A stretch of DNA of 64,000 bases, from sequence record NZ_CP014093.1. One strand, 5' to 3'. The DNA is from a plasmid. Position numbers and translations under genes: made by a program. Each line of letters starts with the position of its first letter. Positions within the stretch are counted from its first letter, which is position 1. Positions 7,899 through 29,077 of this stretch are shown one piece after another. The notes beneath the pieces were generated by a model. That model made no database searches. It was given only the letters and a program-made list of their open reading frames with translations, and was not told where the DNA came from.

Positions 7899-7966
7899 GT
7901 CTTACAAACGCTTTTGACTTAACTCATTGAGTTAGCCCCGCAATAAACGGGGCTTTCTCTCCCGAT

Positions 7967-8236
7967 TTAACTTGTCTGGAAGTCCATTTTTTCTAGGGCG
8001 CACTCAAAACCCTTAACAAATAAGGTTTGGTAATCTTGGGTAGGGTTATCAGTAAGCGCTCCGCCACAAAGCAGCCAATCTTGAAAATGCTGTTCTGGCG
8101 AGTCGTTCCAATCGACAGGTTGTAAGGCGTTGTAGATCTGACAAAGAAGCTCTACAGGCGCGTTTAGATCTTGGGAGAGGTAGTCTTGCGCAGCTTGAAG
8201 TGCGGCGCACATGTTGATTGTAGAAGTACCAATCAT
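7967..8236 (-). CDS. hypothetical protein
   Basis: ORF ending at the IS left end. Confidence 0.3.
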   Translation of the reverse strand: MIGTSTINMCAALQAAQDYLSQDLNAPVELLCQIYNALQPVDWNDSPEQHFQDWLLCGGALTDNPTQDYQTLFVKGFECALEKMDFQTS

Positions 8237-8705
8237 GATTTTTGTCCTAGTAAGTTGATGTTTAACTCACCAAAACCGAGGTCAATCAGTGGTGGTGAGC
8301 TGATTCGAGATTGACCTTACCGCCTACTAGGAAACGGCGCACCGAAGTGCTCCCAAACCAGCCCACCATAATTAGGATGTGCAGATTTTACGCAATAAAA
8401 AACCAGCAGGATGCTGGCGACTTGCGCCTAGTAAGTTTCGAGAGGTCAATCTCGACACTGGATTTTGCCAGTGCCCAAATAGATTAACTCCGAAAAAATA
8501 GGTTTTGCAAGTCGTTTTTTTTAAATATAATTTTTTATATGCAATCTGGCAAGCATTAAAAACGTTGGTTTTAATGTTGCGTTCGGAATAGAATCAATAA
8601 ACTCTTTCCTCATAATTCCCCTAATCACCACAATAGAATTAACTACAAAGGGCAGCGTTCCTCCCCTCCCTCTTTCGGGAGGGGTATCCACGCTGAAACA
8701 TTTAG

Positions 8706-13546: not shown

Positions 13547-14251
13547 GTGTTAAGCTTAAGAGAAAAAATGACGCTCAACCGCGATGCTGCGGGTTTATTG
13601 AAAGAGCTTAAGAGTGGCCAGCTATCGATTGGTGAACGCATCAAAAAGAACCGTGAGCTGGTGGAAATTCTTAATAAACTGACTGGCGCTAACCAAAAGG
13701 TTGAGCAGGAGCCGGTATCAAGTTCGGATGAGCCAATATCGGTAGAAGAATTTTCCAAGTTAGGCCGCTCCGATAAGATTGAAAAGCTCAATGAAGTGCT
13801 ACTTCTGCCTAACTGGTACGAATACGAAATGGCGTTTTTCCCTAACTACCAAATGGTTGAAAAGGGCGATAACTACGTTGTGTACAAGGATGGCGAAAAC
13901 TTCCAGTTTGGCTACAAAGGGCATATTGCGCGAGGTTTGGACTACTGGAAAAACGATGCGGGCTCAGCCAAGAAAAATGGTGGTTTTGGTAGCTGGTCGC
14001 GCGCTGACCGTAGCAAGGCTATCAAGACCATCACTAAGCACATTGAGCAGAATGAGCGCGACAATGGCGAACGTCCAGTTGAACAAAGCGAACTGGTTGC
14101 GAGATTCCTTGCAGGGGAGTTTAATACAGCCAAGCCATCGTTGTTTGTTGATGTAATGCGAGACGTTCACTCAGAGGGCTTGGAGCTAGATAGCATCAAG
14201 CAAAAAGCGATTGAATGGTTCGAGCACAATCCTGACAAACTGGCCGCTTAA
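13547..14251 (+). CDS. hypothetical protein
   Basis: ORF; no recognised motif. Confidence 0.4.
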   Translation: MLSLREKMTLNRDAAGLLKELKSGQLSIGERIKKNRELVEILNKLTGANQKVEQEPVSSSDEPISVEEFSKLGRSDKIEKLNEVLLLPNWYEYEMAFFPNYQMVEKGDNYVVYKDGENFQFGYKGHIARGLDYWKNDAGSAKKNGGFGSWSRADRSKAIKTITKHIEQNERDNGERPVEQSELVARFLAGEFNTAKPSLFVDVMRDVHSEGLELDSIKQKAIEWFEHNPDKLAA

Positions 14252-14586
14252 GTTTTCGCATGCGAGAACTTTTTTGCATGGAGCGCGAAAGACACGGATG
14301 TTTTCGCATGCGAGAGCTTTAAAACATGACATTCTATATATTTTTCGCATGCGAGAACTTTAAAGAATCTCGTTCGATATAGTTTTCGCATGCGAAAACT
14401 TTTCAGAGAACTTGAGAAAAAACAATGAATGTTTTCACTAAAATCCGAGCAGACTATTACTACAAGCAATCTTTAAACCTTGCACTAGCAGCCAGCGAAC
14501 GTCAAAACTACGCCAAGGCGCTTTTCGCATTGCTTAAGAGCCTTTAATCCGTTTCCCTGTCCCAAAAGTTTTCGCATGCGAAAACT
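14248..14586. repeat. cluster of 5 full copies plus 1 degenerate copy of the 22-bp palindrome, about 20-nt spacers
   Basis: Copies at 14248, 14300, 14341, 14381 and 14564; degenerate copy at 14521. Confidence 0.9.
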
Positions 14587-16021
14587 CGCCACTCCAACCG
14601 GAGCGGTCAAATTGAACCAACTCACATCAATTAGCGCCGAAATCAAAGAGGCGAAAAACATCAATGACCTAGCCGAGATTGTTCAACTGTACGCAACAGA
14701 CAATCCAAAACCCAAGCTAGGACGCACCAGCTACGTTGTGACAGCAAAAGGCGACGAAGTGGAAACAGGCTTTAAAGTCGTGGAAGCCAGCGACCTTATT
14801 CCATCGAACGACTTAGACGGTCGAATCAATCCGAACTTCCCGCAAGAACTGCAACCGCGCGACCGTACTCGCGTATCCTCAAAATTGCAGATCTCAAAGA
14901 TGGCCAACGATTTGCGTCCACAACAATTAACCGATTCTGGACTATCTAGCCACGGCGCACCGATTGTCGGTGCAGACAATGTGGTGGAGTCGGGGAACGG
15001 TCGAACCATCGCTATCATCAAGGCGTATCGAGAGGGTAAGGCTGATAAGTACCGCCAGTTCCTAATCGACAATGCGGAGCGCTTCGACCTATCACCGGAG
15101 AAAGTTGAGAGCATGCGCGAGCCAGTGTTGGTTCGAGAACGTGTTACCCAAGTTAACCGTGCTAAGTTTGCCCGAGATTCCAACCTCTCTGACTTGCAAC
15201 AAATGAGCGCAGCCGAGACAGCTTGGGTTGACGCAGAGCGCATCGATGACCGCATGATTGCTCTATTCCAACCGAGCGAAACAGGCAACCTTTTGGCCAA
15301 GTCTAACCAAGGATTTATAAACAGTTTCTTAACTGAAATTGGGGATAACTCAACCGCCGGACTACTTACTGAAGATGGCCGACCAACCAAGCAACTGATT
15401 GAGCACATGCAAAATGCCGTGTTTGCCAAGGCGTACAAAAACGAGAAGTTGGTGAAGCTGGTAGCCGAGGAAGCCGATCCCGAAATTCGCAACATTTTGA
15501 GCGCGCTAAACGGCGCAGCAAGCGCGTTTGTTGAGATGCAATACCTTAGCGGAGAGGTGCATAAAAACACGTCTGGAACGCTGGCAGAAGCCGTGGAAAT
15601 TAACGCCTCACAACCTGACCTCGCTAAGTCAGCACTTGACTCACTGGTGCAAGCAACCGAGCTAGTAAGACAGGCCAAAGATTCCGGTCAACACATCGAT
15701 GAGCTATTGGCTCAGTCCGGTTTGTTTGGCGACAACGATCCCGAGGCCGAAGCGCTGGCGAGATTCATTGCTGCTAACAACCGAAGCGCAAAACGCATGA
15801 CACTGGCATTTAAGGCAATGGCCGAGGCAATCAATAGTGAATTGCTTCACCAAGGCCAAGCGCTCGGGGATATGTTTGGCGGCGGTGGTGCATCGCTTAT
15901 TGATATTCTTGGGCGTGTAAATCAAGAGCTGGAAAACGAGGGGGTACAAACAGGCTTTATGTTCGAGTCTAGTGTGCAACTGGACGAACTTGCAAACGCT
16001 TCGAGGCATGCTATAAAATAG
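14576..16021 (+). CDS. ParB/Srx-like nuclease-domain protein (start uncertain; TTG at 14612 with GGAGCG Shine-Dalgarno is more plausible than the ATG inside the palindrome)
   Basis: 'ELQPRDRTR...GAPIVGADNVVESGNGRTIAII' matches ParB N-domain boxes (QPR; G-x-x-R-x-x-A). Confidence 0.5.
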   Translation: MRKLATPTGAVKLNQLTSISAEIKEAKNINDLAEIVQLYATDNPKPKLGRTSYVVTAKGDEVETGFKVVEASDLIPSNDLDGRINPNFPQELQPRDRTRVSSKLQISKMANDLRPQQLTDSGLSSHGAPIVGADNVVESGNGRTIAIIKAYREGKADKYRQFLIDNAERFDLSPEKVESMREPVLVRERVTQVNRAKFARDSNLSDLQQMSAAETAWVDAERIDDRMIALFQPSETGNLLAKSNQGFINSFLTEIGDNSTAGLLTEDGRPTKQLIEHMQNAVFAKAYKNEKLVKLVAEEADPEIRNILSALNGAASAFVEMQYLSGEVHKNTSGTLAEAVEINASQPDLAKSALDSLVQATELVRQAKDSGQHIDELLAQSGLFGDNDPEAEALARFIAANNRSAKRMTLAFKAMAEAINSELLHQGQALGDMFGGGGASLIDILGRVNQELENEGVQTGFMFESSVQLDELANASRHAIK

Positions 16022-16468: not shown

Positions 16469-17385
16469 TTACACACGATACCCAACTAATTGAGCTTCAC
16501 CAACTGGCACTTGCTCAAGTTCGCCATCATCAAACAGTACCGTTAGCTTGTCGCTATGCTTACCAGATGCGAACACCAAACCATGACGGTCATTAACCAT
16601 GACACAAATACTGGTAGGCTTTTGGTTTGCCGTAGGCTTTTTGCTTACTGGTGTCTTATCGGTCTTTTCTGCTTTCTCTGGTTTGCTAGGTTGAGGTGCA
16701 ACTTCCACCTTGCTATCTAGCTCGCCAGTGCGCAGTTTTACACAATCTTGGCGTGTTAGCTTCTCGCAGCTTTCCAGCGCTTCACGAACGCGCTCAGAGT
16801 TATCGACGGTTGCTTTGCGTAGTTCGTTGATGGACTCTACATCACCAATAATCCCTTTTTGGAATGCTTCCAAAACAAAGTCAGGGCTTTAAGCACATTT
16901 AGGTATTTCGAAATGTAGCCGTCTGATTTGCCAAGGCGCTTAGCCAAGCCACGGTTATCCAGATTGTGCTTTTTCTTTGCTTGGTCAAACGCCTTACCTA
17001 ATTCGATTGGCGTTAAATCTTCTCGCTGAATGTTTTCAATGAGCTGACCAAAAATATCGCCCTTTTCACGGACAATACATTCAACGTGAGTTAGCTTATC
17101 GCTCAACATAGTGGCGCGCCAACGGCGTTCACCCTCTTGGATTTTGTATCCCTTGCCATCAAACGGGTAAACAACGACAGGTTGAATTTGGCCGTTTTCT
17201 TCTAGGCTTTCGCACAACTCAAGTAGTGATTCATCATTAAATTCTTCACGAACTTGCTCGACTGAATACAAAGAGTCTTTAGGGATAGCCAACACTTTCG
17301 CTGCATCGCGGATTTCTACCTCTGATTCATCCAAGAGATTATCTAGGTCGCTAAGCTTGATTCGATCTCTTAAACTTTTGGTCAT
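16469..17385 (-). CDS. parB: ParB partition protein, split by a 1-nt frameshift near 16840-16875
   Basis: N-part 'PVVVYPFDGKGYKIQEGERRWRAT' (GERRxRA box) plus HTH 'LGKSDGYISKYLNVLKAL'. C-part continues in the other frame ('DFVLEAFQKGIIGDV...'). Combined length about 320 aa. The start overlaps the parA stop (ATGA). Confidence 0.7.
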
Positions 17386-18155
17386 GCTGTCACCTCTACC
17401 ATGCGCTTGCAAAGTTCCTCACAAACCGCTGTAAAGCCGAATTTCTCAGCCGCTTTAGGGTTGGTTTCAATCAGTGCTTTGCCTTGGTTTAGAGCTTCAC
17501 TTACGCGCGTTGTTTTAATCAGTTTGTTTTCAAAAACTAGGTTGCCGTACTCTTTACGAAGTTCCGCTTCCTGTTCGCGCTGGTCGTTTGTAATGTTGGC
17601 TTCGATAAGGTTTAGGACAATGCCTAATACTTCCAAGTCAGGGTTCATTCGACGGATTTGGCGCGAGGTCTTAACCAGCTCATTAACGCCTTTGATCGAC
17701 ATTTTTTGTGCTTGGCTAATGATAAGTAGCTTACTGGCCACAAGTAGCGCTGCATGCTGTAGCGCGTTCGCCGCTGGTGGACAGTCGATAAAGATATAGT
17801 CGTAGTCGTCTTTGATAAGGTCGATAGACTCAGCCACGTTTAAGATTTGTGATTGAGTAATGTTACCCATGCGCTTATCGCCGCCAATAACGTGTACGTT
17901 TTCGCTGACTTCGAAAGGTTTAGCCTTTACTGGATTTTCAAAAAGGTTGTAAGCGTTGTGTAGGCAGCTCGCAGATGTGTACTCTGGATTCTCGACCATT
18001 TCCGGTGCGATTGAGCCGCCTAAGTTGTTTTGTGGGTCAAAGTCCAGGAATAGACATTTGTTGCCTTGACTAGCGATGCTAATGCCAAAGTTGTAAGTAC
18101 AAGTTGTTTTACCAACGCCGCCTTTTTGGTTGGCAATCGCCATGATAATGCTCAT
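17382..18155 (-). CDS. parA: ParA/Soj-type partition ATPase
   Basis: Deviant Walker A 'AIANQKGGVGKTT'; typical ParA length. Confidence 0.9.
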   Translation of the reverse strand: MSIIMAIANQKGGVGKTTCTYNFGISIASQGNKCLFLDFDPQNNLGGSIAPEMVENPEYTSASCLHNAYNLFENPVKAKPFEVSENVHVIGGDKRMGNITQSQILNVAESIDLIKDDYDYIFIDCPPAANALQHAALLVASKLLIISQAQKMSIKGVNELVKTSRQIRRMNPDLEVLGIVLNLIEANITNDQREQEAELRKEYGNLVFENKLIKTTRVSEALNQGKALIETNPKAAEKFGFTAVCEELCKRMVEVTA

Positions 18156-18832: not shown

Positions 18833-18856
18833 AAAAGTTTTCGCATGCGAAAACTT
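18833..18856. repeat. 22-bp palindrome copy
   Basis: AAAAGTTTTCGCATGCGAAAACTT. Confidence 0.9.
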
Positions 18857-19292
18857 AACGCATCGATTTGCTGTTAACACTCCACGCTTCGAGATTTACG
18901 TCCTCGATAGAATATTCAAATTCTTCATCATCGACGTAGTAGGTATGTAGGTTTGCTTGCCAGTAGCCTTTATCAACTTGCTCTTGCTGGTACGCCCACG
19001 CAGCACACAACAAAATCGCAGAGTCTTCGAAATTGAAGTGTTGCTCTGTGATCACTTCTGAATCGCTGCCAAGGTCATAACCATGCTTGGCCATGAGCGA
19101 TTTAACCGCCCACCAATAAGCGCCATAGTGACGGTACATGAGCGGATTGGCTTTAAGTGTTTTGTAAATGCCATCTACTTGAGCTTGGATAAATGCTTCT
19201 TTGCTTTGCGCTGTTTCTAGCGCCTCATCGAGTAAGGGCTGTAGATCTTCAACGGTAGGCAATTTCACTTGGGTAATCATTTTTGTCTCCAA
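18855..19292 (-). CDS. acidic hypothetical protein (145 aa) immediately downstream of the DarB-like gene
   Basis: ORF rich in Asp/Glu with aromatic residues. Confidence 0.35.
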   Translation of the reverse strand: METKMITQVKLPTVEDLQPLLDEALETAQSKEAFIQAQVDGIYKTLKANPLMYRHYGAYWWAVKSLMAKHGYDLGSDSEVITEQHFNFEDSAILLCAAWAYQQEQVDKGYWQANLHTYYVDDEEFEYSIEDVNLEAWSVNSKSMR

Positions 19293-19333
19293 AAAGTTTT
19301 CGCATGCGAAAACTTATCGCATGCGAAAATTTG
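19291..19333. repeat. 1.5 copies of the 22-bp palindrome
   Basis: Read directly. Confidence 0.9.
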
Positions 19334-19335: not shown

Positions 19336-22300
19336 TTAGGCAGCTTCGGCCATTGTGTTGTGAATGGTTAATAGCGATTTCGCTAGCAATTCCAAATCCG
19401 CTTTAGCAGAGATAAACCACCAGCCGCCATTAAATTCACTGCTTGCGTTTGATGCGAAGTCAGCGCCGTACTCGGCCTTAGCTTCCTTGTCACCAGCGAA
19501 CATCACTTTAAGCGAACCTTTAAGGCCATTGTTGTCCATCAAACCAATGCGCTCGTATGGCTCTACAACAATCTCTTTTCGGTTGCGACCGCGCTTAGGC
19601 TTCCAGCTAATTGGTGAAGTCACCATTTTAACGTCGATGCCAATGCCTGACATTAGTTCGCTAAACTTCTCGATGCTCTCTACGTTAATGGCAGAGATAT
19701 TATCGATTTTCACTTTCTGCGTTTCGGTCACTTTAACCTCGGCCTTTTCCGGCTTATCCGCATTTAGGTACTTCTCGATAAATTCCTCACGCTGTGCGCT
19801 GCGATAAGTGAATAGCGAACCATACGCACCTTTCATGCGATTCAATGACCAGTCATCCGAGAAGATTAGGCCATCACCGGATAGGAACTCACGTTCGCCA
19901 ATAGCGTGTAGGTCAGCGCATACCTTAAGCATGGTTTCTTGTGAGTTTTCGCCGTAAATCGCATCGACCTTTTTCAGCAAGTGAGTATCGGTCGTTGGCT
20001 TGTATTGCGTCATCCAGCACGCGATCTGTGATAGACGTTTTGCACGGTCAGGGTCGTTGGCCACCAGCTTAGTGAAGTCAGCGAATAGCTTATCTTCCAA
20101 CTCTGTGCGGTATTCGCTCGAACGTTCGGTCAGAATATCGGTGTAACGAGTGTACTCACGAGCCGATAGGCGGCGCGCTTCGTGTGCGTTGGTGTAACCT
20201 GTCCATTTCAAATTGCTTAGATGGTTATCTAGCTCTTTGAGGAACGTGATAGACGTTTTGTAAATCGTCTCCGCTTTGAGTAGTGCCTCTTGATAAAGCT
20301 CAGGGTATTTTTCCTCGAATGCTTTGATCTCAAGTGTCACCAGTTCAACGACTTCCTGTTCGCTCACTTGGTTGCCGTTTTCCATCGCCTGTTTGTCCCA
20401 ATCGCTACCGATAAAGAAACTTAGAATGTCGTGTTCCAACATCACGCGACCTTTATCTTCCAATTGCTTGGTCACTTGGTCGAGTAGGGCTTTCGCGGTC
20501 GCTTTATCGCTCGCATCTGGATAAATCAGCGTTTGGTCTGGTTCAACATCCAATCCCCACGGAGTAGAGAATGAGCCGTCAGCATTACGCACCAAACAAC
20601 GGCGGCTATTACCGTAGGCTTTCATTTTCTTCTCTGCGACCAGTTCAAAGAACGTCTCACGGTCAAACGTATGAGCGACTTCACTTAGTGGTACACCTTG
20701 GAGCGCTTTTGCTTCTAGTGCTGCTCTATCCTGATTCACTGGCGCAATTTCAATGATGCGCTCAACAGGTAGATCGACATAGTTGCGTGACGCTGGTTCG
20801 CCGTCCATTTCAGTAATAAAGCCGTCCACCGTGCCAGATTTACGGTCGAAGTTGGTGATCATGATTGTTGCTTTTGAGTCGTACTCGGCGCTCCAAGAAC
20901 GGCTCTTAACTTCGGCTTTGTAGGTGTAGCCATTACGAACAATCACACCGTTGCGAACAATGTATAACTCTGGATGAGTTAGGAAGTCAGGGTAATCCTT
21001 TAACACACCGTCATTGATGGCCAGCTCCATTGCTGGTTTCAATTTCTTGATGGTATCGCTCGCTTTGTCGCGGTTTTTGATCGCTGCCTCATAGGTTTTG
21101 ATTTGGCTTTCTAGCGCAAACAGTCTGCCTTTGGTGCGTTGGTAGTTTTTGTGCTGCCAACTGCCGCGCTTCTCGCCCTCTGCACGTAGGCGATCTTCTT
21201 CCACCTCTTTGCGTAGTGGCTCTAACTTCTCGCGTAGTTCGGCCAGCTCGCCCTCAACCGCACTCACATCCAAAGCAAGCATTTGGGTGGCTTTGATGTA
21301 CTTGCTAACGTTAATACTTGCTAGTCGGCGTTCCTCTAATTTGCGCTTGCGCTCAGCTTGACGCTTAGCCGCTTCGATACGGGCTTTCGCTTCTTCTGGA
21401 TTTGCTGCCAGCATGATTGCAGTTTCGTCGGCTGCGTCTGCATCGGCGTTCGCAATGTACTTTTCATCACCTTTGAACATTGTCTCAATCCAAGTGGCTT
21501 TGCGTTGGATTGTGGCCAAGCGGAAATCATCGAATGAGCCTTTCGACGTGTAGTAGTGAACGTTCACGCTGTTTTGTTTAGAGCCAACACGCGCGCCACG
21601 GCCATTACGCTGTGTGATACTCATTGGAGTCCAAGGTAGCGTTAAGTGGTGAATATCGGTTGTGCCATGATGCAAGTTGATGCCGACTTCGCCTTTTTTA
21701 TTGAGGATCATGAATTTGTATTTCGAGGTGTTGTAAGCATTGGCCATTGCTTCCAAACCCGCTTCCTCATCGTCCTCAGTCGCTTTAGAGCCTTTCTTAC
21801 CCGCAACGGTATCGCTGTTCAAAATACCGATTTCAGACAGCTTACAACCAACAAAATCCGCAATGATTCGCGCGACTTTCTTGTGCTGTGTTTTTTCTTC
21901 GGTAAAGACAAGCTGCTTACCGCCAGCCAGATAAATCTCGCGCGCGTTTTCAAGGAACTTGGCGTACTTAGGGGAGACAGGGTGCGTAAATTTCAACTTG
22001 GCCTTGTCACAAATGTTTGTGAATCGGTCATCAAGTTGCTGGTGGAGCTGAACCACGCAGTGATCGCCCTCGACCTTAACGCTCTTATCAACCTTAACTT
22101 GGATTTTGCTTAGCTTAACCGTGCCGTCTGGTGCCACATCCTCAAAAGCGACCGTGACGGTATTTGGTAGCTTAGATACTGCCGCCTCTACCTCTTTCTT
22201 GCTGTCCTTGGCGAATCGGTAGGTAACACGCTCATAGTACAAATCAAGGTCTGTACTTACCTTGTCCATTTTACGGATTAGGCCGAAAACCGTGTCGTTA

Positions 22301-25300
22301 GGGTATTGCTCGACAATCTCTTGGTTTTCGTCTTTGTCTGGATTACTGATTGCGTCAGCGCGCTGGCGTAGTTCCTCATATAGCGCTTCCTGTTCGCTAT
22401 TCATTTGGACAACGCTTTGCTGGCTAATCAGGTCAGGAATGTGAACGTTGGCACCAACGGATTTAGCATCCTCGATCGTCATGTAGCGGTTAACGATGTT
22501 TCGAAGTGCGTCTAGGTTTTGGAATCCGAGTAGGGCTTCACGCTGTTCAACTTCGCCCGAAATCTTAGTAACCAGCGCTTCGCCAGTCTTACCAAACATG
22601 CGGATAAAGTCGTCGCTGTCAAAAATCCCCATCTTGGCAAACGTGTCTGCCGGAATGATGTGGGACAGCATATTGAACATATCAACAGGGCTGTTTACGG
22701 TTGGCGTAGCTGTTAGGAAGTAAACGCCTCGACCGTCATTGCGAGCCTTAATGACGTTGTTCTTAAGCTGCATATCGATAGCGCGATCGGCTTGCGCTTG
22801 GCTAGGCAAGAATGCCAGATTGTTTCGGTATGAGCCGCCCTTGTACGAGTTACGGAAATCATGCGCCTCATCGACCATAACCGAATCGAATAGCAAGTCC
22901 TCAAAGTACGGTAGTTCTTCGTTTTTGGCCGTACCATCGTCAGCATATTTCGCTTCAAAGCGCGCGTTCTTCGCTTGCTCTGTGTGGCTTTCCGCTTCCT
23001 TAACTAGCTTGCTTGAACCAGCAATCAAACCAGCATCGCGCATTTCAAGCACGTTGGCCGAAATCGTGTCCGGCTTCAATGGAATGCGGTTGTACACGTC
23101 TTTTGTCATTACCACGATGCGAGCGGTTGACTGTGTAAGCTGGTGGAGCTGTTCTGCTACGCGCTTGCCGTTTGTGTCTACGGTCAGTTTGGCGCGCAAG
23201 ATAGGATCGCCTTTCTTGTCTAACTTCGGTTCGCCCGTTTCATCTAATACCGGTTCCCGAATGATTTTTCCTTCATCGTCTTTGTGAACTTCAAGGCCGA
23301 TAAATACCTTGTCAGATAGATTGCTTTCACCAAAGAACAGGTCGGACTCATAGAACCAGTTCTCTAACACGGATTTAGGAACAACGATGGCCACACGGTT
23401 AGCGCGTTTGGTTTCTAGGTTGTGCTGCACGAGGCCAAGGCCAGTGAGCGTTTTACCCAAGCCAGTACCAAAGGCAATAATGCCGTTACCGTCTGCACTG
23501 TGACGGCGAATCGTTGAGTTTTGGTAAGGTAGGAACTCAATCGCACCAGATACGCCATTTAGCGTTAGTGGTGAGTCATCAAACTCCGGCTTAATCCAAC
23601 CGTTAAACGTATTGTTGTAAACCTGTTCCAAGTATTCTGAATGGTCAGATGATGCAATCCATGTAGAAAACTCATCATCGAGGCGGCGCATTTGTTCACG
23701 GATAAGTGATTTATCTTCGTTCTTACTACCGCCACGAACCGCACCATAGTTGATGTACGATTCAATTTGACGCTCAAATCGCTCATCGCTGTTCGCTGCT
23801 TTACCTTTCACGCCATTACGAGTTAGGCCATCAATCCATTCGCCATCACGCCAACGGTAGCCAGTAAGGTATTGGCCGGATTCGCTTTGTACGAAATCCT
23901 CAAAGCCGTCCTTATCCTCGGTAAAGTCGCCCAAGATAAATTCCGTGTAGCCACGGTCATGCAGGAACTCAAGCATGATGTTTTTAGGAATCCACTTATC
24001 GGTAAGCTTCATCTTCACATCGGCAATCGAGATCTTGTTTCGCTTAGATTCGATGGCTTGAATTTGGCGCATGATGTTAGCTTTCACGGTATCGCTGGTG
24101 GTCGATACTAATTGTGCGGTCAGCTGATCCATGCGCTTACCGACTAGGCCAGTCGTCGCTTTATGGAATGCCGTCACCGTGCCGTCAGGGTTTACGGCTA
24201 CCTCATCCATGTTCGCTAGATAATCAAGCAACTGCTCATCGCTCATCGCATCGATACCGCTTGCGGTGTAATACTTGCGAACGTCATCCAGTGTCAGTGT
24301 GGTTATGCCTAGTTCACGGTCGCATAGATGGAACACGTCACCAATGCGAGACGAACTGTATTGAACGGTCAGCTCACGCTTAAGGTCGCCTTTGAGTAGG
24401 TCAGATAGTTTGCCCTTAGAATCGATCGATGAGTGGTAGTAATTCCATGCAGAGACGTACTTCTCGCTTAAGTTGCTTAGCGCTTTCTTCGATACCTTAG
24501 AACCGCCCATTAATGTGTTCAGCTCTAACACTTCGCCGCTTAACTTCACGCGATATTGTTCGGTCTGGAAGTCCTCCGCGCCCATTGCCATGTTTATCAA
24601 GTCGCTATTGGATGTAGTTCGGCTACCAGCAACCAGCGTTGCAAGTGTTTGAACTTTCATGCCAAGTAGAATGCCTTTGTAAGCGTGTTCTTGGCTCGCT
24701 TTTGGCAGCTTGGCAATCTCGCGCATTAGGGCTTTAAAGTCGTCATGACACAAGTAACCGTAATCTTCGAAAAGCTTGAGCGCTTGGCTGGCCGATAGCT
24801 TAAGCATCGATTCAGTAGAGTAGGTGATAGAACCGATCTCATCGGTGTTATCTACGCCATAGGTCGCCTTACTGATAACGCCTGTTTTCGCATTGCTTTC
24901 AGATAGCTCCCATTCGCCATCAATCATTTCGTACTGCTGGCCATTGCGGAAAATCGTGTCTCCATCGGAGTATTTCGCGCTCACTGGCTCACTAACCGCT
25001 TCATCGAGTAACATCCAGTCAATGCGACTGTCAAAGCGGCGCATTAGCGACTCTTTAATATCATCGTTAGAACGGTTGCCACGCTTCACGACTTTGCGCG
25101 CAAACTTACCTACGCCCTCAACAGTCTGTTCGCCGTTGATGAATTTCTTACCCTCGCGCTCGAACCACTTACCTTTGAGCCAAGTGTCCCAAAGTACGTT
25201 AGATTCAATCAGCGTGTCGCGGTCGGCGCTATCAATCAGTGCTTTCGCTTGGTCGCTGTGTTTGCGCCAGATAACAAGGTCAGTCACTACGCCCGTATCA

Positions 25301-26055
25301 GAGAACGTGCCCGTTGGTAGTCGGTGCGCGCCCAAAAACTCCGCTTTAAGCGCGAGTTGTGTACGCCACTTCTCAAGGTTTTTCGCATCACAAATACGAG
25401 TTGGCAGCACTAGGGCAATCAAGCCACCAGCTTTCGCTTTATCGATAGAACGAGAAACGAAATACTGATCAGCGTACTTAATGTCTTTGTACGCTTTGTC
25501 TTTCATCGCGCTAGCGTCTCGAACACCATAAGGCGGGTTGCCGATCACTAGGTCAAAGTCGCCAATGCCAGGATTAGTTGCTACCGCTTCGAATGCAGAT
25601 TGGATTACATGGTCTTCGGGGTGAAGAATTTGGTTAATGGCCGCCGAGGTCTGATCCATTTCTACGGATGTAGTCAGGGTGCCTTTAGGTTTGGTTTCGC
25701 TAAATACTCCCACACCCGAACTTGGTTCAAGTACGCTACCGCCAGTAAAACCATAGGAACGAACTGCATCCCAAGTCGCGCTCGCCAGCCATTTAGGCGT
25801 GTAGTATTCGTTGGTAGAGCCACCGATACCGCCAAAACCTGTGTAGTCGCGCAGAGCTGCCTTATCTTCGGGTGAAACGTTGGAGTAGTCGCCGTTGTAC
25901 TTGGCGAGAATATCTTTGGCTAGTTGGTTAGCCTTAAGGCGCTGGTGGCCTTTTGGAGTGTCGCTAATATCGACAGCGAGCAAGGCTTCAAACTGGCGTA
26001 CCAGTTCATCGATTGTTGTCGCCTGTTCAATACTGCGGGTTAAATCAGTGTTCAT
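19336..26055 (-). CDS. giant methyltransferase-helicase fusion (2239 aa), DarB-like anti-restriction candidate
   Basis: N-terminal AdoMet motif 'VLEPSSGVGVF' and 'LVIGNPPYG' (N6-adenine methyltransferase motif IV). Central 'IIAFGTGLGKTLTG' Walker A and 'MVDEAHDFRN' DEAH box (SNF2/DEAD helicase). Confidence 0.8.
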   Translation of the reverse strand: MNTDLTRSIEQATTIDELVRQFEALLAVDISDTPKGHQRLKANQLAKDILAKYNGDYSNVSPEDKAALRDYTGFGGIGGSTNEYYTPKWLASATWDAVRSYGFTGGSVLEPSSGVGVFSETKPKGTLTTSVEMDQTSAAINQILHPEDHVIQSAFEAVATNPGIGDFDLVIGNPPYGVRDASAMKDKAYKDIKYADQYFVSRSIDKAKAGGLIALVLPTRICDAKNLEKWRTQLALKAEFLGAHRLPTGTFSDTGVVTDLVIWRKHSDQAKALIDSADRDTLIESNVLWDTWLKGKWFEREGKKFINGEQTVEGVGKFARKVVKRGNRSNDDIKESLMRRFDSRIDWMLLDEAVSEPVSAKYSDGDTIFRNGQQYEMIDGEWELSESNAKTGVISKATYGVDNTDEIGSITYSTESMLKLSASQALKLFEDYGYLCHDDFKALMREIAKLPKASQEHAYKGILLGMKVQTLATLVAGSRTTSNSDLINMAMGAEDFQTEQYRVKLSGEVLELNTLMGGSKVSKKALSNLSEKYVSAWNYYHSSIDSKGKLSDLLKGDLKRELTVQYSSSRIGDVFHLCDRELGITTLTLDDVRKYYTASGIDAMSDEQLLDYLANMDEVAVNPDGTVTAFHKATTGLVGKRMDQLTAQLVSTTSDTVKANIMRQIQAIESKRNKISIADVKMKLTDKWIPKNIMLEFLHDRGYTEFILGDFTEDKDGFEDFVQSESGQYLTGYRWRDGEWIDGLTRNGVKGKAANSDERFERQIESYINYGAVRGGSKNEDKSLIREQMRRLDDEFSTWIASSDHSEYLEQVYNNTFNGWIKPEFDDSPLTLNGVSGAIEFLPYQNSTIRRHSADGNGIIAFGTGLGKTLTGLGLVQHNLETKRANRVAIVVPKSVLENWFYESDLFFGESNLSDKVFIGLEVHKDDEGKIIREPVLDETGEPKLDKKGDPILRAKLTVDTNGKRVAEQLHQLTQSTARIVVMTKDVYNRIPLKPDTISANVLEMRDAGLIAGSSKLVKEAESHTEQAKNARFEAKYADDGTAKNEELPYFEDLLFDSVMVDEAHDFRNSYKGGSYRNNLAFLPSQAQADRAIDMQLKNNVIKARNDGRGVYFLTATPTVNSPVDMFNMLSHIIPADTFAKMGIFDSDDFIRMFGKTGEALVTKISGEVEQREALLGFQNLDALRNIVNRYMTIEDAKSVGANVHIPDLISQQSVVQMNSEQEALYEELRQRADAISNPDKDENQEIVEQYPNDTVFGLIRKMDKVSTDLDLYYERVTYRFAKDSKKEVEAAVSKLPNTVTVAFEDVAPDGTVKLSKIQVKVDKSVKVEGDHCVVQLHQQLDDRFTNICDKAKLKFTHPVSPKYAKFLENAREIYLAGGKQLVFTEEKTQHKKVARIIADFVGCKLSEIGILNSDTVAGKKGSKATEDDEEAGLEAMANAYNTSKYKFMILNKKGEVGINLHHGTTDIHHLTLPWTPMSITQRNGRGARVGSKQNSVNVHYYTSKGSFDDFRLATIQRKATWIETMFKGDEKYIANADADAADETAIMLAANPEEAKARIEAAKRQAERKRKLEERRLASINVSKYIKATQMLALDVSAVEGELAELREKLEPLRKEVEEDRLRAEGEKRGSWQHKNYQRTKGRLFALESQIKTYEAAIKNRDKASDTIKKLKPAMELAINDGVLKDYPDFLTHPELYIVRNGVIVRNGYTYKAEVKSRSWSAEYDSKATIMITNFDRKSGTVDGFITEMDGEPASRNYVDLPVERIIEIAPVNQDRAALEAKALQGVPLSEVAHTFDRETFFELVAEKKMKAYGNSRRCLVRNADGSFSTPWGLDVEPDQTLIYPDASDKATAKALLDQVTKQLEDKGRVMLEHDILSFFIGSDWDKQAMENGNQVSEQEVVELVTLEIKAFEEKYPELYQEALLKAETIYKTSITFLKELDNHLSNLKWTGYTNAHEARRLSAREYTRYTDILTERSSEYRTELEDKLFADFTKLVANDPDRAKRLSQIACWMTQYKPTTDTHLLKKVDAIYGENSQETMLKVCADLHAIGEREFLSGDGLIFSDDWSLNRMKGAYGSLFTYRSAQREEFIEKYLNADKPEKAEVKVTETQKVKIDNISAINVESIEKFSELMSGIGIDVKMVTSPISWKPKRGRNRKEIVVEPYERIGLMDNNGLKGSLKVMFAGDKEAKAEYGADFASNASSEFNGGWWFISAKADLELLAKSLLTIHNTMAEAA

Positions 26056-26095
26056 TGAACGTGCCTTTTATTCTTTGGATAAAAGCCAAAAAAAA

Positions 26096-26125
26096 AGTCG
26101 AGCTTTCGCCCGACTTTTTCCTTTC
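26096..26125. terminator. A-run, hairpin, T-run (bidirectional terminator-like)
   Basis: AAAAAAAAA-GTCGAGC-tttc-GCCCGAC-TTTTT. Confidence 0.35.
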
Positions 26126-26436
26126 CTATTCCCCATCCCAAAAAAACGCCACTATCAATATCAATTTAAGTTAATGAATAATCTAAAATATCTAAGGAAG
26201 TAGATTTTTAGGGACGAGATAATTATTCCGAACACGTAAGTTGTCATCAAGAATAAAAATTAGTGTTTTTGGTGAGTAACCAAGATTCAAAGGCAAGCAA
26301 TTGAACTTTGACTAAAAAAATTTAACGCATAGAAAATCAATCATTTATTAGCGTATTGGTCACATTGACGCGATGCGCTATCATCCAAGATCATCCCCAT
26401 CCCTGTAGAAAGCGCCTCAACTAACCGAGGTCGCAC

Positions 26437-28110
26437 ATGTCGCAAAACAAGGCATCAATTGGGCTAGCGACAGCTTTAAAACAAGCGTTCCCTTTCTTTA
26501 ACGAGAATGACGATAAAGAGAGCGGGATCAGTTTTGAATCTGGCGCTGGATATACGGGATCGCCATTCCACGATCGCGAAAACCAATTAGATGAAAGCAA
26601 CGGCGCTCTGACCAATGACGGTCGAAAAAGCTCAGACCGCTTTTTTCTGCACAAACTGCCGAAAGATCGCTTCATGCTATATCCGATACTCAAGGAAATG
26701 GCCGAGGACAGCACGATTGATGCCGCGCTCAATCTGCACCTTGGTCACGCTCTTTCGGTATCAAACGACAATGGCATGGCTGTGTATCTTTATCCAACCG
26801 ATGAGAAGTACGCCGAGTACGTAGGCCGTCTTAACCGAGAGCTGCTAACTCCAATCAACGAAAACCTAATGAACTGGACGTATTCAACGCTGGTTTATGG
26901 GGTTAACTATGTTCGCCCATACACGAAAGAGGGCGTGGGTATTACTCACTTTGAGGCCAACTACTACACGTTGCCAAACCAAATTCGTGAGTACGAACGT
27001 TCGGGCGAGCTAGCGGGATTTACTGCGGAATATCTACAAACCCGAGCGAACGGCGAACAGGTACGCCTTGCCGAGCCTTGGGCGCTTATCCCACTAAAAA
27101 TGCCAATCTGGCGACCAGATATGGATATACCGCCAGTTAACTACACTGGCCAGCGCTACTCACTTTATGACGATGCGTATTCACGCATGCCAATCGAGAC
27201 GCAGAACTACGGCACATCCATTCTTCTTACCTGTTTTGAGGCTTGGTCGATGCTTCGCCAGTCCATTGCAGCGCTCGGCGCAAGTCGTGTAAATGCTTCA
27301 CTTATCGACCGCATGGTAGCGGTAAACACTGACGGCTTAGATGCTGCGGGAGCTGCGGAATACATCAACATGGTCGCTGACCAGATGAAGCAAGACCGTC
27401 AAGAGGTGGTAGACCGTTCCCGTAAGCTAGGTTTCATTCCAACAGTCATCAACACGCTATTGCCCTTTATGGGTGGTGCTAAAGGTGGCTTACAGATCGA
27501 TACCTTTACCACTGACCCAAATATCTCCCACATCGAAGACATTATGTTTCACCTTAAACGCTTAGCCGGAACGCTTGGCGTAGACCCATCCATGCTTGGG
27601 TTTGGTGATCTTCTTTCTGGTGGGCTAGGCGAGGGCGGTTTCTTCCGCACTTCTATTCAATCAGCACTACGCGCCAACCAAATCCGCGCAGCCGTGGTGG
27701 CGTTCGTTAAGCGCGCTATCGACATTCACACCATCTATCGAGACGGCAAGGTGTGGAACGACAACGATATGCCATTCGAGATCCGATTTAACTCTCTCAA
27801 TACTGCTATCGAGCAAGAGAAGTCGGCGGCAATGGAGTCGCAAGCGAACTATGCAACCATGCTGACTACTGTGCTTGACCTTATCGAGCAATCCCCAATC
27901 AGCAAGTCTCCGAAACTCAAAAACCATCTTTATACGTCCGTTGTTGGCCTCGATTCCGAGCTGGCCAATGAAGTCATTTCCGAGCTCGCGGCTCAAGTGG
28001 CCAAGAACGACAAGATGATGGAATCCATTGGCATGACTAACCAAAGCGAAGCGGAACGATTCGTTAGAGACGTAGTTCTCGACCTACTAACCGAAATCCA
28101 AAGCCATTAA
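26437..28110 (+). CDS. hypothetical phage protein (557 aa; possibly portal or structural)
   Basis: Long ORF followed at a short distance by a second ORF. No diagnostic motif; the portal guess rests only on size and context. Confidence 0.3.
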   Translation: MSQNKASIGLATALKQAFPFFNENDDKESGISFESGAGYTGSPFHDRENQLDESNGALTNDGRKSSDRFFLHKLPKDRFMLYPILKEMAEDSTIDAALNLHLGHALSVSNDNGMAVYLYPTDEKYAEYVGRLNRELLTPINENLMNWTYSTLVYGVNYVRPYTKEGVGITHFEANYYTLPNQIREYERSGELAGFTAEYLQTRANGEQVRLAEPWALIPLKMPIWRPDMDIPPVNYTGQRYSLYDDAYSRMPIETQNYGTSILLTCFEAWSMLRQSIAALGASRVNASLIDRMVAVNTDGLDAAGAAEYINMVADQMKQDRQEVVDRSRKLGFIPTVINTLLPFMGGAKGGLQIDTFTTDPNISHIEDIMFHLKRLAGTLGVDPSMLGFGDLLSGGLGEGGFFRTSIQSALRANQIRAAVVAFVKRAIDIHTIYRDGKVWNDNDMPFEIRFNSLNTAIEQEKSAAMESQANYATMLTTVLDLIEQSPISKSPKLKNHLYTSVVGLDSELANEVISELAAQVAKNDKMMESIGMTNQSEAERFVRDVVLDLLTEIQSH

Positions 28111-28123: not shown

Positions 28124-29077
28124 GTGACAGCAAAAGCACTTAAACAAGTATCCGACCGTTTCAGCCTATTCAATGACGGTCGAAAACTTAGCGCCAACAA
28201 GCGCAATTACATCATCAAAGCCGTGCAAGCGATGATCAACAGCCCACGAACTAAAGAGCTACTGCGACTAGGTGAGGCGTATGGTTACTATGGCCATCAA
28301 TCCCGCCAACGCGCCAATAAGCTCTCAATCGGTGAAACTGAGGTGATCATGATTAATGGTCGTCCGGTTGTGGTAGAAAACGTGCCATCTAACCGCACAG
28401 TCTCTATCACCTGTTCAGATGACGGTATTGTTGAACACACTCAAGAGTTTTTAGATACCGACACAGGCCGTATTGCTTTAGGTTTGCACAATAGTCGTGC
28501 TGGTGGTTGGAGCTGGGCGACTGGTGGCCAAGATACACGCGAGGCATCGATCACTACTTCATATCACGGTATGGACTACGTATTGCAGCCGAACTATATC
28601 AGCCTAGACCATCCGGCCATGATGATGGAAAGTGCGAACAGCGAGCAAATGATCCTCGAATCGCTACAGGAACAAGGTTTTGATGAGGAATCCGCGCGTA
28701 ATATCTACGCGAACATGACTCAACAGACCAATGTTGAGCTTGTCGGTGATCTTACTAACCAGCTTATGTACCTAGAAAGCGTGAACACAGATTTGCGTGA
28801 AAAGGTAGAGCAAAACGCTAAGGCAACCTCGATGCTGCTTGATGTTGTGGACTCTTTACCTATCTATGTGACCGATGCGCAGCGCAAAGCGATCGCCAAC
28901 ATGGCCAGCAAGGAAGATCATCAAGTGGTGCGAGCTATGTTTGAGTCGCTATGTTCCCGAAAAATGGCGACTTTACCGACAAATAGCTATGTTCCAGTAG
29001 AGCAAAAAGTGAGTGTTGCGCCTCAAATTAAACAGCAGTTCGTCAACTTCGGATCTTCGGCACGAAAATTCCAATAA
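28124..29077 (+). CDS. hypothetical phage protein
   Basis: ORF directly downstream of the previous one. Confidence 0.3.
   Translation: MTAKALKQVSDRFSLFNDGRKLSANKRNYIIKAVQAMINSPRTKELLRLGEAYGYYGHQSRQRANKLSIGETEVIMINGRPVVVENVPSNRTVSITCSDDGIVEHTQEFLDTDTGRIALGLHNSRAGGWSWATGGQDTREASITTSYHGMDYVLQPNYISLDHPAMMMESANSEQMILESLQEQGFDEESARNIYANMTQQTNVELVGDLTNQLMYLESVNTDLREKVEQNAKATSMLLDVVDSLPIYVTDAQRKAIANMASKEDHQVVRAMFESLCSRKMATLPTNSYVPVEQKVSVAPQIKQQFVNFGSSARKFQ

What the first reader, a model, noticed from the sequence alone, without database searches (positions are those of the whole stretch)
19336..26055. 6.7-kb methyltransferase-helicase fusion (DarB-like). Probable virion-delivered anti-restriction protein.
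A single 2239-aa ORF carries N6-adenine methyltransferase motifs I and IV (EPSSGVGVF, NPPYG) followed by helicase motifs I and II (GTGLGKT, DEAH). By established knowledge of phage P1, DarB has this architecture and comparable size, is packaged in the capsid and protects injected DNA from type I restriction. Finding it next to par and rep genes supports a phage-plasmid lifestyle. It is the largest intact gene in the window although smaller genes nearby carry frameshifts.
Basis: partly seen in the sequence, partly recalled or inferred. Interest (0 to 1): 0.7.

Follow-up and report, generated by a model that had tools for sequence, protein, structure and literature searches.

The report
DarB anti-restriction gene, Vibrio P1-like plasmid
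The 6.7-kb gene is a full-length relative of phage P1's DarB, a capsid-packaged protein that shields injected phage DNA from type I restriction enzymes, and it sits with the rest of the P1 Dar system in a P1-like phage-plasmid of Vibrio alginolyticus, so it is a well-supported but ordinary new member of a known family.

Summary
A 2239-aa ORF lies at 19336-26055 (-) and carries all four quoted motifs.

- The protein aligns with P1 DarB along its whole length (35% identity, 1023 bits).
- All methyltransferase and SNF2-helicase catalytic motifs are intact.
- It keeps P1's local gene order, pro<-prt | darB->ulx.

The window also encodes the rest of the Dar system: lydA, lydB, hdf, darA, a ddrA-like gene and ddrB. 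A sister plasmid carries the P1-type capsid, sheath and baseplate genes. The element is therefore a distant P1-like phage-plasmid of Vibrio alginolyticus.

Such Vibrio elements, with DarA and DarB noted, were already described (pVv01, 2014). Virion packaging and anti-restriction activity are inferred by orthology, not shown here.

The nearby frameshifts are 1-bp deletions in G/C homopolymers, probably sequencing errors. darB has only four such runs, so its intactness says little.

New details:
- Vibrio DarBs carry a canonical NPPY motif where P1 has NVPF.
- An intrinsic terminator in the darB leader is conserved in six Vibrionaceae lineages.
- A TnpB insertion element splits hdf from darA.
- DarA is very large (1597 aa) and DdrB is short (481 aa).

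Verdict: new member of a known kind. Interest is low to moderate.

The parts
19336..26055 (-). darB: 2239-aa DarB orthologue (methyltransferase-SNF2 helicase fusion)
   Evidence: ORF confirmed. 35% identity to P1 DarB over aa 35-1916 plus the C-terminal end. phrog_1685 match of 1476 bits. pN/pS = 0.10 against the copy in NZ_CP135970.1.
25951..26055 (-). N-terminal 35 residues, the candidate capsid-targeting segment
   Evidence: In P1 the first 30 residues suffice for capsid targeting (PMC9024508). Here BLAST finds no match, but the multiple alignment shows a shared helix-like pattern, (S/T)(I/V)x(E)(L/I)(V/L). This is an inference only.
25216..25947 (-). N6-adenine methyltransferase domain (aa 37-280), with motif I at 25702-25728 and motif IV NPPY at 25525-25539
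   Evidence: Pfam Eco57I methylase. Motif I is invariant in 6 orthologues. Motif IV is NPPY in the three Vibrio lineages and NVPF in P1, D6 and Spartinivicinus. Coordinates.
23551..25203 (-). Middle region (aa 285-835), family-specific, function unknown
   Evidence: AlphaFold2 model with pLDDT 82. No Foldseek match in the PDB at E <= 0.001.
21451..23550 (-). SNF2-type helicase/translocase core (aa 836-1535): motif I 23449-23469, II 22861-22872, III 22702-22716, VI 21583-21612
   Evidence: Pfam SNF2-rel_dom, ResIII and Helicase_C. Motifs I, II, III and VI are invariant in 6 orthologues. Coordinates.
19339..21378 (-). C-terminal third (aa 1560-2239): long coiled-coil hairpin, small beta domain, helical domains and a terminal alpha/beta domain with a conserved F-G-x-W-W end
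   Evidence: AlphaFold2 model with pLDDT 91.8. Only coiled-coil matches in the PDB. Only 29 of 1.84 billion cluster representatives match, most of them DarB-sized proteins matched at their C-terminal ends and the rest shorter proteins that look like fragments.
18855..19280 (-). ulx homologue (141 aa from the ATG at 19280), the partner that aids DarB localisation in P1
   Evidence: 27% identity to P1 Ulx, E = 2e-16. Ulx-like PHROG at 2.6e-43. The same position after darB is seen in every locus fetched. Start codon read.
26088..26123 (-). Intrinsic-terminator-like hairpin with a U-run in the darB 5' leader, about 33 nt upstream of the ATG
   Evidence: Found. An equivalent hairpin lies 21-100 nt upstream of darB in all 6 Vibrionaceae lineages examined, with different stem sequences. 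The leader folds with z = -4.2.
26219..26250 (-). Promoter-like site for darB whose -10 region overlaps a TGTTCGGAAT motif (26222-26234)
   Evidence: Sigma-70-like match. The motif occurs 16 times in the window against 2.1 expected. Its role as an operator is inferred.
26437..28110 (+). Portal protein (P1 Prt homologue), divergent from darB
   Evidence: 40% identity to P1 Prt, E = 4e-142.
28124..29077 (+). Head-processing protein (P1 Pro homologue)
   Evidence: 40% identity to P1 Pro, E = 6e-86.
5358..6091 (+). lydA (5358-5681) and lydB (5678-6091), the first genes of the dar operon as in P1
   Evidence: Pfam LydA holin and LydB. PHROG holin and lysis-determining protein. tblastn against P7.
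6078..6710 (+). hdf homologue
   Evidence: 37% identity to P7 Hdf, E = 4e-28. Hdf-like PHROG at 1.4e-61. Pfam DarA_N domain.
6711..8705 (-). IS200/IS605-type insertion carrying tnpB (6804-7898), placed exactly between the hdf stop and the darA start
   Evidence: Absent from NZ_CP135970.1. Pfam OrfB_IS605, Cas12f1-like TNB and HTH_OrfB. The same unit sits elsewhere in two sister plasmids. Rfam isrK and C4 RNA matches at 8288-8474.
8706..13499 (+). darA homologue, unusually large (1597 aa against 639 aa in P1)
   Evidence: 31% identity to the DarA N-terminus, E = 6e-27. Pfam DarA_N, plus DarA_C at 26.5 bits, just under its 27-bit cutoff. phrog_1926 over the full length. NCBIfam anti_RE_DarA partial match.
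13547..14251 (+). ddrA-like gene
   Evidence: DdrA-like PHROG at 6.7e-8. Weak tblastn hit, E = 0.018, at the syntenic position.
14576..16021 (+). ddrB homologue, N-terminal ParB-like half only (481 aa); the metallopeptidase half of P1 DdrB is missing
   Evidence: 59% identity to DdrB aa 2-442. Pfam ddrB-ParB at 2.2e-41.
16469..18155 (-). parB (split by a 1-bp homopolymer deletion at 16887) and parA
   Evidence: ORFs. ParA/ParB annotation in the sister plasmid. Deletion located.

Best explanation
The ORF is the DarB orthologue of a distant P1-like phage-plasmid of Vibrio alginolyticus.

Shown here:
- It is collinear with P1 DarB over the full length.
- Its N6-adenine methyltransferase and SNF2 ATPase motifs are intact.
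- It shows purifying selection.
- It has the P1 gene order pro<-prt | darB->ulx.
- The other five Dar genes (hdf, darA, ddrA-like, ddrB, ulx) are present, and a sister plasmid carries a complete P1-type myovirus structural module.

Inferred from P1 genetics and virion proteomics:
- During lytic growth Hdf and DarA enter the procapsid first.
- DdrA, DdrB, DarB and Ulx follow, with DarB recruited through its N-terminal segment in tens of copies.
- The proteins are ejected with the DNA and act in cis to protect the incoming genome from type I restriction-modification enzymes of the new host.

The biochemical step is not known even for P1. The most likely model (Iyer et al. 2017) is that the SNF2 motor translocates along the entering duplex while the fused methylase modifies adenines, or that the complex blocks the translocating type I enzymes.

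In this lineage, expression probably starts from a promoter overlapped by a repeated TGTTCGGAAT site, a putative prophage-repressor operator. Transcription must then read through a conserved leader terminator. This would keep the 250-kDa protein off in the plasmid state. That regulatory step is also inferred.
For: Homology:
- 35% identity and 1023 bits over aa 35-1916, plus the C-terminal end.
- phrog_1685, 1476 bits.
- motifs I, IV and helicase I, II, III, VI are invariant across 6 orthologues.

Synteny:
-.
- The darB-ulx pair is conserved in 10 independent loci.

Dar system in the window:
- Hdf 37%, DarA N-terminus 31%, DdrB 59%.
- Searches confirm the domain and PHROG assignments.

Phage-plasmid identity:
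- eight V. alginolyticus plasmids at 98.5-99.4%, all typed non-mobilizable.
- ParAB, Rep, PacB, Ssb, Ref, Mat, gp25, gp26.
- homologues of the gp23 capsid protein, gp22 sheath, tube, baseplate and Sit.

Selection: one search gives pN/pS = 0.10.

Literature:
- PMC9024508: DarB, Ulx, Hdf, DarA, DdrA and DdrB were detected in P1 virions; the first 30 residues of DarB are a capsid-targeting signal; about 40 copies per virion.
- PMC12810830: the order of packaging.
- PMC4132613: pVv01, an inducible P1-like Vibrio myovirus-plasmid with DarA and DarB.

Regulation.
Against: - No experiment on this element exists. Virion packaging and anti-restriction are transferred from P1 across about 35% identity.
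- The N-terminal 35 residues, the targeting signal in P1, do not align by BLAST and show only a loose shared pattern.
- In this copy a 2-kb TnpB element separates hdf from darA. It could be polar on darA, which P1 needs in order to load DarB.
- DdrB lacks the metallopeptidase half.
- No Lpa homologue was found in the window, and the P1 late-promoter box is not enriched there.
- pacB, parB and other genes are frameshifted in this sequence. If those frameshifts are real, the prophage is defective.
- The mechanism of DarB itself is undefined (PMC11109961).
Confidence: 0.85

Rival explanations
1. The gene is a DarB orthologue, but this particular element is a decaying, non-inducible prophage-plasmid. 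DarB would then no longer be packaged or used, making it a relic rather than a working anti-restriction protein.
For: - A TnpB insertion sits between hdf and darA.
- There are frameshifts in parB, pacB, the 30073-30992 gene and others relative to NZ_CP135970.1.
- The related plasmid p0908 was judged defective by its authors (PMC4132613).
Against: - The frameshifts are nearly all -1 errors in G/C homopolymers (10 of 69 such runs). That is the signature of sequencing or assembly error, not of decay.
- Sister plasmids have the genes intact.
- darB shows pN/pS = 0.10, and 426 near-identical sequences form one cluster.
- The insertion leaves both the hdf and darA reading frames intact.
Confidence: 0.1
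2. It is a host-protective defence enzyme carried as plasmid cargo, either a DISARM/Dpd-like SNF2 plus methylase module or a type IIG/ISP restriction-modification enzyme, rather than a phage counter-defence protein.
For: - Weak domain-level hits to DrmD, DpdE, ZorD and type II methylases (48 bits; 43 bits or less).
- The Pfam name of the methylase domain is Eco57I.
Against: - The scores are far below the curated cutoffs (48 against 610 bits for DrmD). They cover only generic helicase or methylase cores.
- No nuclease domain is detected.
- No DrmA/B/C or Dpd neighbours are present.
- The whole-length match is to DarB.
- The gene is locked between ulx and the portal gene in every lineage examined.
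Confidence: 0.02
3. It is a packaged DarB orthologue, but its main role is something other than blocking type I restriction. Possibilities are countering other defences (BREX or DISARM-type methylation-dependent systems), remodelling or condensing DNA in the head, or assisting ejection.
For: - The mechanism of P1 DarB is undefined, and plasmid assays for it were confounded by restriction alleviation (PMC11109961).
- DarA and Hdf have structural roles in head morphogenesis (PMC12810830).
- Two thirds of the protein (middle and C-terminal regions) have confident but unmatched folds.
Against: - P1 darB mutants are specifically sensitive to EcoB/EcoK (cited).
- The catalytic motifs of both enzymatic domains are invariant over about 30% sequence identity. 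That argues for an enzymatic rather than a purely structural role.
Confidence: 0.1

Closest known systems
DarB of Escherichia phage P1 (P1_gp011, 2255 aa) and of P7/D6 (genus Punavirus and relatives)
   Same: - Same size: 2239 against 2255 aa.
- Same domain order: N-terminal segment, N6A-methylase, family-specific middle region, SNF2 helicase, coiled coil, C-terminal region ending in F-G-x-W-W.
- 33-35% identity along the whole length.
- Followed by ulx and placed next to prt-pro.
- Accompanied by hdf, darA, ddrA and ddrB behind lydA-lydB.
   Different: - Methylase motif IV is the canonical NPPY, where P1 and D6 have NVPF.
- The N-terminal 35 residues have diverged.
- The 381-bp leader carries a conserved terminator, while P1 has a 75-bp intergenic region with none.
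- The P1 late-promoter box is not enriched in the window.
- The partner DarA is 2.5 times larger, and DdrB lacks the peptidase half.
- The host is Vibrio.
P1-like plasmid prophages of Vibrio: pVv01 (V. vulnificus, HG803186) and p0908 (NC_010113)
   Same: - Marine Vibrio plasmids with P1-like virion, lysis, replication and partition genes, and with DarA and DarB noted by the authors.
- pVv01 is inducible and makes myovirus particles (PMC4132613).
- p0908 carries darB followed by a Ulx homologue and the portal gene (Ulx 33% identity, E = 2e-20).
   Different: - p0908 DarB is only 32% identical and has an N-terminal extension of about 300 aa.
- Its darB, ulx and portal genes are collinear rather than divergent, and it has no leader terminator.
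- The window therefore belongs to a separate lineage, as far from p0908 as from P1.
DarB-like methylase-helicase modules in polyvalent virion proteins of Bcep22-like and other podoviruses (phrog_10089; Iyer et al. 2017, PMC5512222)
   Same: The same adenine-methylase plus SWI2/SNF2 dyad in a protein delivered with the DNA.
   Different: Those proteins are 4000 aa or more, with extra domains such as lytic transglycosylase and peptidases. They match only the two enzymatic cores at 24-28% identity over about a third of the query. No ulx, hdf or darA partners are known for them.

Membership tests
DarB (P1 defence-against-restriction protein B) | Full-length, collinear sequence homology to P1 DarB | tested here: met
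   BLASTP gives 35% identity over aa 35-1916 (1023 bits), plus aa 2168-2221 against P1 aa 2192-2244. phrog_1685 covers aa 37-2224.
DarB (P1 defence-against-restriction protein B) | N6-adenine methyltransferase plus SNF2 helicase in one polypeptide of about 2200-2300 aa, with catalytic motifs present | tested here: met
   Pfam domains. Motifs located. Motifs invariant in 6 orthologues.
DarB (P1 defence-against-restriction protein B) | Encoded with ulx immediately downstream and beside the portal and head-protease genes of a P1-type phage | tested here: met
   The same arrangement is seen in other lineages.
DarB (P1 defence-against-restriction protein B) | Co-occurrence of the loading factors Hdf, DarA, DdrA and DdrB | tested here: met
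   Caveats: a TnpB insertion lies between hdf and darA, DdrB is only the N-terminal half, and DdrA similarity is weak.
DarB (P1 defence-against-restriction protein B) | N-terminal capsid-targeting sequence (first 30 residues in P1) | tested here: inconclusive
   There is no BLAST alignment of aa 1-34. The multiple alignment shows only a loosely conserved helix-like pattern. The P1 signal itself has no defined consensus (PMC9024508).
DarB (P1 defence-against-restriction protein B) | Physically present in the virion head and ejected with the DNA | not testable with these tools
   This needs virion proteomics of an induced lysogen.
DarB (P1 defence-against-restriction protein B) | Protects incoming DNA in cis from type I restriction (EcoB/EcoK class) | not testable with these tools
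   This needs plating-efficiency assays of a darB mutant on hosts with and without type I R-M.
P1-like phage-plasmid | Plasmid maintenance genes (rep, parAB) together with P1-type virion, lysis and packaging genes on one non-conjugative replicon | tested here: met
   About 25 P1/P7 homologues were found across the window and the sister plasmid.
DISARM (DrmD SNF2 helicase plus DrmMI methylase) or Dpd defence systems | Score above the curated family cutoff, and the presence of the partner genes (DrmA/B/C or DpdA-K) | tested here: not met
   DrmD scores 48 bits against a cutoff of 610, and DpdE 39.5 against 500. PADLOC scores are 43 bits or less. No partner genes are among the neighbours.
Type IIG / Eco57I-like restriction-modification enzyme | Endonuclease domain and target-recognition domain fused to the methylase | tested here: not met
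   Only the methylase core matches Eco57I (aa 145-237). No nuclease family was detected. The structure models show none.

The most novel reading that the evidence does not exclude
In the Vibrionaceae branch of P1-like phage-plasmids, darB-ulx is gated by a dedicated leader terminator. A promoter carrying the putative prophage-repressor site (TGTTCGGAAT) is followed by a structurally conserved, sequence-variable intrinsic terminator 21-100 nt before the start codon. DarB would then be made only when a phage-encoded antiterminator, or some other read-through mechanism, acts late in infection. This is a control layer not described for P1, whose late genes use the Lpa activator. Together with the canonical NPPY motif, it would make these Vibrio elements a cleaner system than P1 for finding out what DarB does biochemically.
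Probability: 0.3. Interest if true: 0.4.

Novelty: new member of a known kind. Interest (0 to 1): 0.2.

Why it matters
The finding extends the complete six-protein Dar counter-restriction system, so far studied only in coliphage P1, to an abundant family of Vibrio alginolyticus phage-plasmids. One cluster alone holds 426 near-identical DarB sequences.

More than 120 clusters of about 2200-aa orthologues occur across Vibrionaceae, Aeromonas, Pseudoalteromonas, Xenorhabdus and Enterobacteriaceae. Public annotation calls these proteins only 'SNF2-related protein'. NCBIfam returned only generic SNF2-helicase hits, all far below their cutoffs. Correct naming would therefore improve anti-defence annotation.

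For biology, the value lies in comparison:
- The invariant catalytic motifs argue that both enzymatic activities matter.
- The large, confidently folded regions with no known structural relatives mark where the unknown mechanism may reside.

It does not change what is known about how such systems work.

Tried and rejected
- Megablast of the gene against 50,697 phage records found nothing. The relationship to P1 is visible only at protein level.
- The P1 late-promoter -22 box (CAAGTKACTT, taken from the P7 annotation) is not enriched: 8 matches against 10 expected. No Lpa homologue appeared among window ORFs.
- The ORF at 46064-46969, which sits where c1 sits in P1, has no detectable similarity to C1 and no PHROG match.
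- The search for homologous proteins with the C-terminal 680 aa returned no hit, probably because coiled-coil words swamped the word index. The exhaustive HMMER search and the full-length query did work.
- Fold searches of both AlphaFold models were uninformative. The middle region had nothing at E <= 0.001. The C-terminal region matched only coiled-coil hairpins and a marginal SH3/KOW-like hit.
- The afdb50 library was unavailable.
- No DarB relative has a solved structure.
- The pVv01 record (HG803186) and Piya et al. 2017 (PMC6011833) are not held.
- The GGGATGGGGA repeat in the darB-prt spacer is not enriched window-wide: 3 matches against 1.35 expected.
- I considered that an intact darB among frameshifted neighbours signals selection. 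I rejected this after counting homopolymer runs.
- I considered defence-system and R-M readings and rejected them.

Full report
**Observation.** The window holds an uninterrupted ATG-to-TAA reading frame of 2239 codons at 19336-26055 on the minus strand.
- EPSSGVGVF at aa 110-118
- NPPYG at aa 173-177
- GTGLGKT at aa 863-869
- DEAH at aa 1062-1065

They fall inside Pfam domains: an Eco57I-type N6-adenine methylase, an SNF2-related domain, ResIII and Helicase_C.

**Homology to DarB.** A nucleotide search of phage records finds nothing. At protein level the best phage matches are the DarB proteins of P1, P7, D6 and their relatives, at about 34-35% identity over 84% of the query.
- Direct BLASTP against P1 DarB (2255 aa) gives 35% identity over aa 35-1916 (1023 bits). 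A second collinear match joins aa 2168-2221 to P1 aa 2192-2244.
- The PHROG family containing DarB matches aa 37-2224 with 1476 bits.
- I aligned six orthologues: this protein, two other Vibrio lineages at 69% and 50% identity, Spartinivicinus, D6 and P1.
- In that alignment methylase motif I and helicase motifs I, II, III and VI are invariant, and the extreme C-terminus keeps an F-G-x-W-W signature.
- Motif IV is the canonical NPPY in the three Vibrio lineages and NVPF in P1, D6 and Spartinivicinus.

**Context.** The neighbours reproduce P1's map, which is pro<-prt | darB->ulx.
- The gene after darB (18855-19280, -) is a Ulx homologue (27% identity, E = 2e-16; Ulx-like PHROG at 2.6e-43).
- The divergent genes upstream are homologues of the portal Prt and of Pro, each 40% identical.
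- The second Dar locus is also in the window, in P1 order:
  - lydA and lydB
  - hdf (37% identity)
  - darA (DarA_N above its Pfam cutoff and DarA_C just below it, but 1597 aa instead of 639)
  - a ddrA-like gene
  - ddrB (59% identity, but only the N-terminal ParB-like half, 481 aa instead of 995)
- All six known Dar proteins therefore have counterparts here.
- The darB-ulx pair recurs in every related locus I fetched.

**The element.**
- The gene is 98.5-99.4% identical to genes on eight Vibrio plasmids of 93-217 kb (seven V. alginolyticus, one Vibrio sp.), all typed non-mobilizable.
- The window further encodes ParA/ParB, a replication initiator, Ssb, both terminase subunits (the large one a PacB homologue), Ref, Mat, gp25 and gp26 homologues.
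- The remainder of a 93-kb sister plasmid encodes homologues of the P1 major capsid protein gp23, the sheath protein gp22, tube, baseplate and Sit proteins.
- This is a distant P1-like phage-plasmid.
- Such elements are known in Vibrio. pVv01 of V. vulnificus is inducible, forms myovirus particles and was reported to encode DarA and DarB (PMC4132613).
- The present lineage is distinct from that one. The DarB of the closely related p0908 is only 32% identical.

**Intactness and frameshifts.**
- Relative to NZ_CP135970.1, the window differs by a 1995-bp insertion and by many single-base deletions.
- The deletions sit almost exclusively in G/C homopolymers. Of 69 such runs of 4 bases or more, 10 are shortened by one base. 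This is typical of sequencing error.
- darB has four such runs and darA none, so their intactness needs no special explanation.
- Independent evidence for constraint comes from substitutions: 28 synonymous against 10 non-synonymous differences, giving pN/pS = 0.10.

**Distribution.**
- 738 plasmid records carry a match at E <= 1e-30, mostly E. coli and Salmonella P1-like plasmids, with 22 from Vibrio.
- The large protein collection holds more than 120 clusters of about 2200-aa orthologues on 80-100-kb contigs. They come from Vibrio, Photobacterium, Pseudoalteromonas, Aeromonas, Xenorhabdus, Pantoea and Enterobacteriaceae. Sources name them only 'SNF2-related protein' or 'N-6 DNA methylase'.
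- The C-terminal 680 residues match only 29 of 1.84 billion cluster representatives, most of them DarB-sized proteins matched at their C-terminal ends and the rest shorter proteins that look like fragments.

**Structure.**
- No relative has a solved structure.
- AlphaFold2 with a 58-sequence alignment gives confident models of the C-terminal third (pLDDT 91.8) and of the middle region (pLDDT 82).
- The C-terminal third consists of a long coiled-coil hairpin, a small beta domain, helical domains and a terminal alpha/beta domain.
- Neither model has an informative match in the PDB. The hits are only coiled coils and a marginal SH3/KOW-like match.
- About two thirds of the protein is therefore folded, conserved within the family and of unknown function.

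**Regulation.** This part is inference.
- The 381-bp spacer between darB and the portal gene contains a sigma-70-like promoter on the darB strand. Its -10 region overlaps TGTTCGGAAT.
- That 10-mer occurs 16 times in the window against 2.1 expected, is asymmetric and is mostly intergenic. This recalls the dispersed C1 operators of P1.
- About 33 nt before the darB start codon lies a canonical terminator: an A-tract, a GC-rich hairpin and a U-tract.
- An equivalent hairpin sits 21-100 nt before darB in all six Vibrionaceae lineages that have the divergent prt|darB layout, and the stem sequences differ between lineages.
- It is absent from P1, D6, p0908 and Spartinivicinus.
- No co-directional gene lies upstream, so the hairpin is in the leader.
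- I read this as a gate that keeps darB-ulx silent in the plasmid state. It has not been tested.

**Mechanism.** The following comes from P1 work.
- Hdf and DarA enter the head first, followed by DdrA, DdrB, DarB and Ulx (PMC12810830).
- DarB is present at roughly 40 copies per virion and is directed by its first 30 residues (PMC9024508).
- The proteins leave with the DNA and protect it in cis from EcoB/EcoK-type restriction.
- How DarB achieves this is undefined (PMC11109961).
- The favoured model couples SNF2 translocation with adenine methylation of the entering DNA (PMC5512222).
- I adopt that model for this orthologue. The invariant catalytic motifs support an enzymatic role, and the divergent N-terminus leaves the packaging signal unverified.

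**Rivals.**
- A defence-system or restriction-enzyme reading fails. DrmD and DpdE scores are an order of magnitude below the curated cutoffs, no nuclease domain exists and no partner genes are present.
- A 'relic in a dead prophage' reading is possible for this particular copy, because of the TnpB insertion between hdf and darA. The frameshifts look artefactual, however, and the gene is under purifying selection.

**Verdict.** The finding is a new member of a known family, in a known kind of element. Interest is about 0.2. The leader terminator, the NPPY motif and the altered DarA and DdrB partners are the only points that go beyond the P1 picture.

Noticed in passing
window 6711-8705: A 1995-bp IS200/IS605-type element is inserted exactly at the hdf-stop/darA-start overlap. 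It carries tnpB (6804-7898, -) and subterminal hairpins at both ends. Upstream of tnpB on the same strand, Rfam finds an isrK-like RNA (8397-8474) and a C4 antisense-like RNA (8288-8373). The same unit occurs at a different position in two sister plasmids, so it is mobile. It may be polar on darA.
   Followed up: partly
window 5001-19328 (13 sites: 5001, 5042, 14254, 14302, 14343, 14384, 14570, 16452, 18504, 18552, 18839, 19298, 19315): The 16-bp palindrome TTTTCGCATGCGA(A/G)AA occurs 13 times against 0.5 expected. All copies are intergenic and clustered within about 13 kb of parAB, including an array of four between ddrA and ddrB and two between darB and ulx. Among the fetched loci it is found only in the sister plasmid with the same ParAB. 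Probably parS sites or an operator.
   Followed up: partly
window, 16 sites, e.g. 26222-26234, 34254-34266, 37772-37804, 43037-43049, 47066-47078, 56787-56799: The asymmetric 10-mer TGTTCGGAAT is strongly over-represented (16 sites against 2.1 expected) and mostly sits in front of genes. It resembles the dispersed C1 operators of P1. The repressor was not identified: ORF 46064-46969 occupies the c1 position but shows no similarity to C1.
   Followed up: partly
window 26088-26123 (-); also L005, L006, L013, L014, L015: An intrinsic terminator in the darB leader is conserved in structure, but not in sequence, across six Vibrionaceae lineages. It is absent from P1, D6, p0908 and Spartinivicinus.
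   Followed up: yes
window 8706-13499 and 14576-16021: The DarA homologue is 1597 aa (P1: 639 aa), with about 1000 residues of unassigned sequence after the DarA_C domain. The DdrB homologue is 481 aa (P1: 995 aa), lacks the C-terminal metallopeptidase half, and is the best-conserved Dar protein (59% identity).
   Followed up: no
window 16199, 16887, 29629, 30514, 35060, 35121, 35186, 36895, 42770, 44497, 45811 and others: Single-base deletions in G/C homopolymers relative to NZ_CP135970.1 split parB, pacB, the 30073-30992 gene and others. The pattern (10 of 69 G/C runs of 4 or more shortened, AT runs almost untouched) points to sequencing or assembly error rather than pseudogenes.
   Followed up: yes
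window 19313-19329: A 17-bp tandem duplication (CTTATCGCATGCGAAAA), absent from the sister plasmid, creates the second palindrome copy between the darB stop and the ulx start.
   Followed up: no
window 51850-52254 (+): An Rfam cspA thermoregulator match just reaches the gathering score (78.5 against 78 bits), suggesting a cold-shock protein gene with its 5' UTR thermosensor carried as plasmid cargo.
   Followed up: no
window 32000-34300: An AT-rich stretch (GC 0.35) downstream of the rep gene has no long ORF and many small indels relative to the sister plasmid. It is likely the origin or iteron region.
   Followed up: no
L012 21515-21946 (NZ_CP082321.1 69514-69945): A small protein annotated as an RNA polymerase alpha C-terminal domain protein is encoded between the capsid and sheath gene homologues of the sister plasmid. 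It is a possible phage transcription factor, relevant to late-gene control.
   Followed up: no
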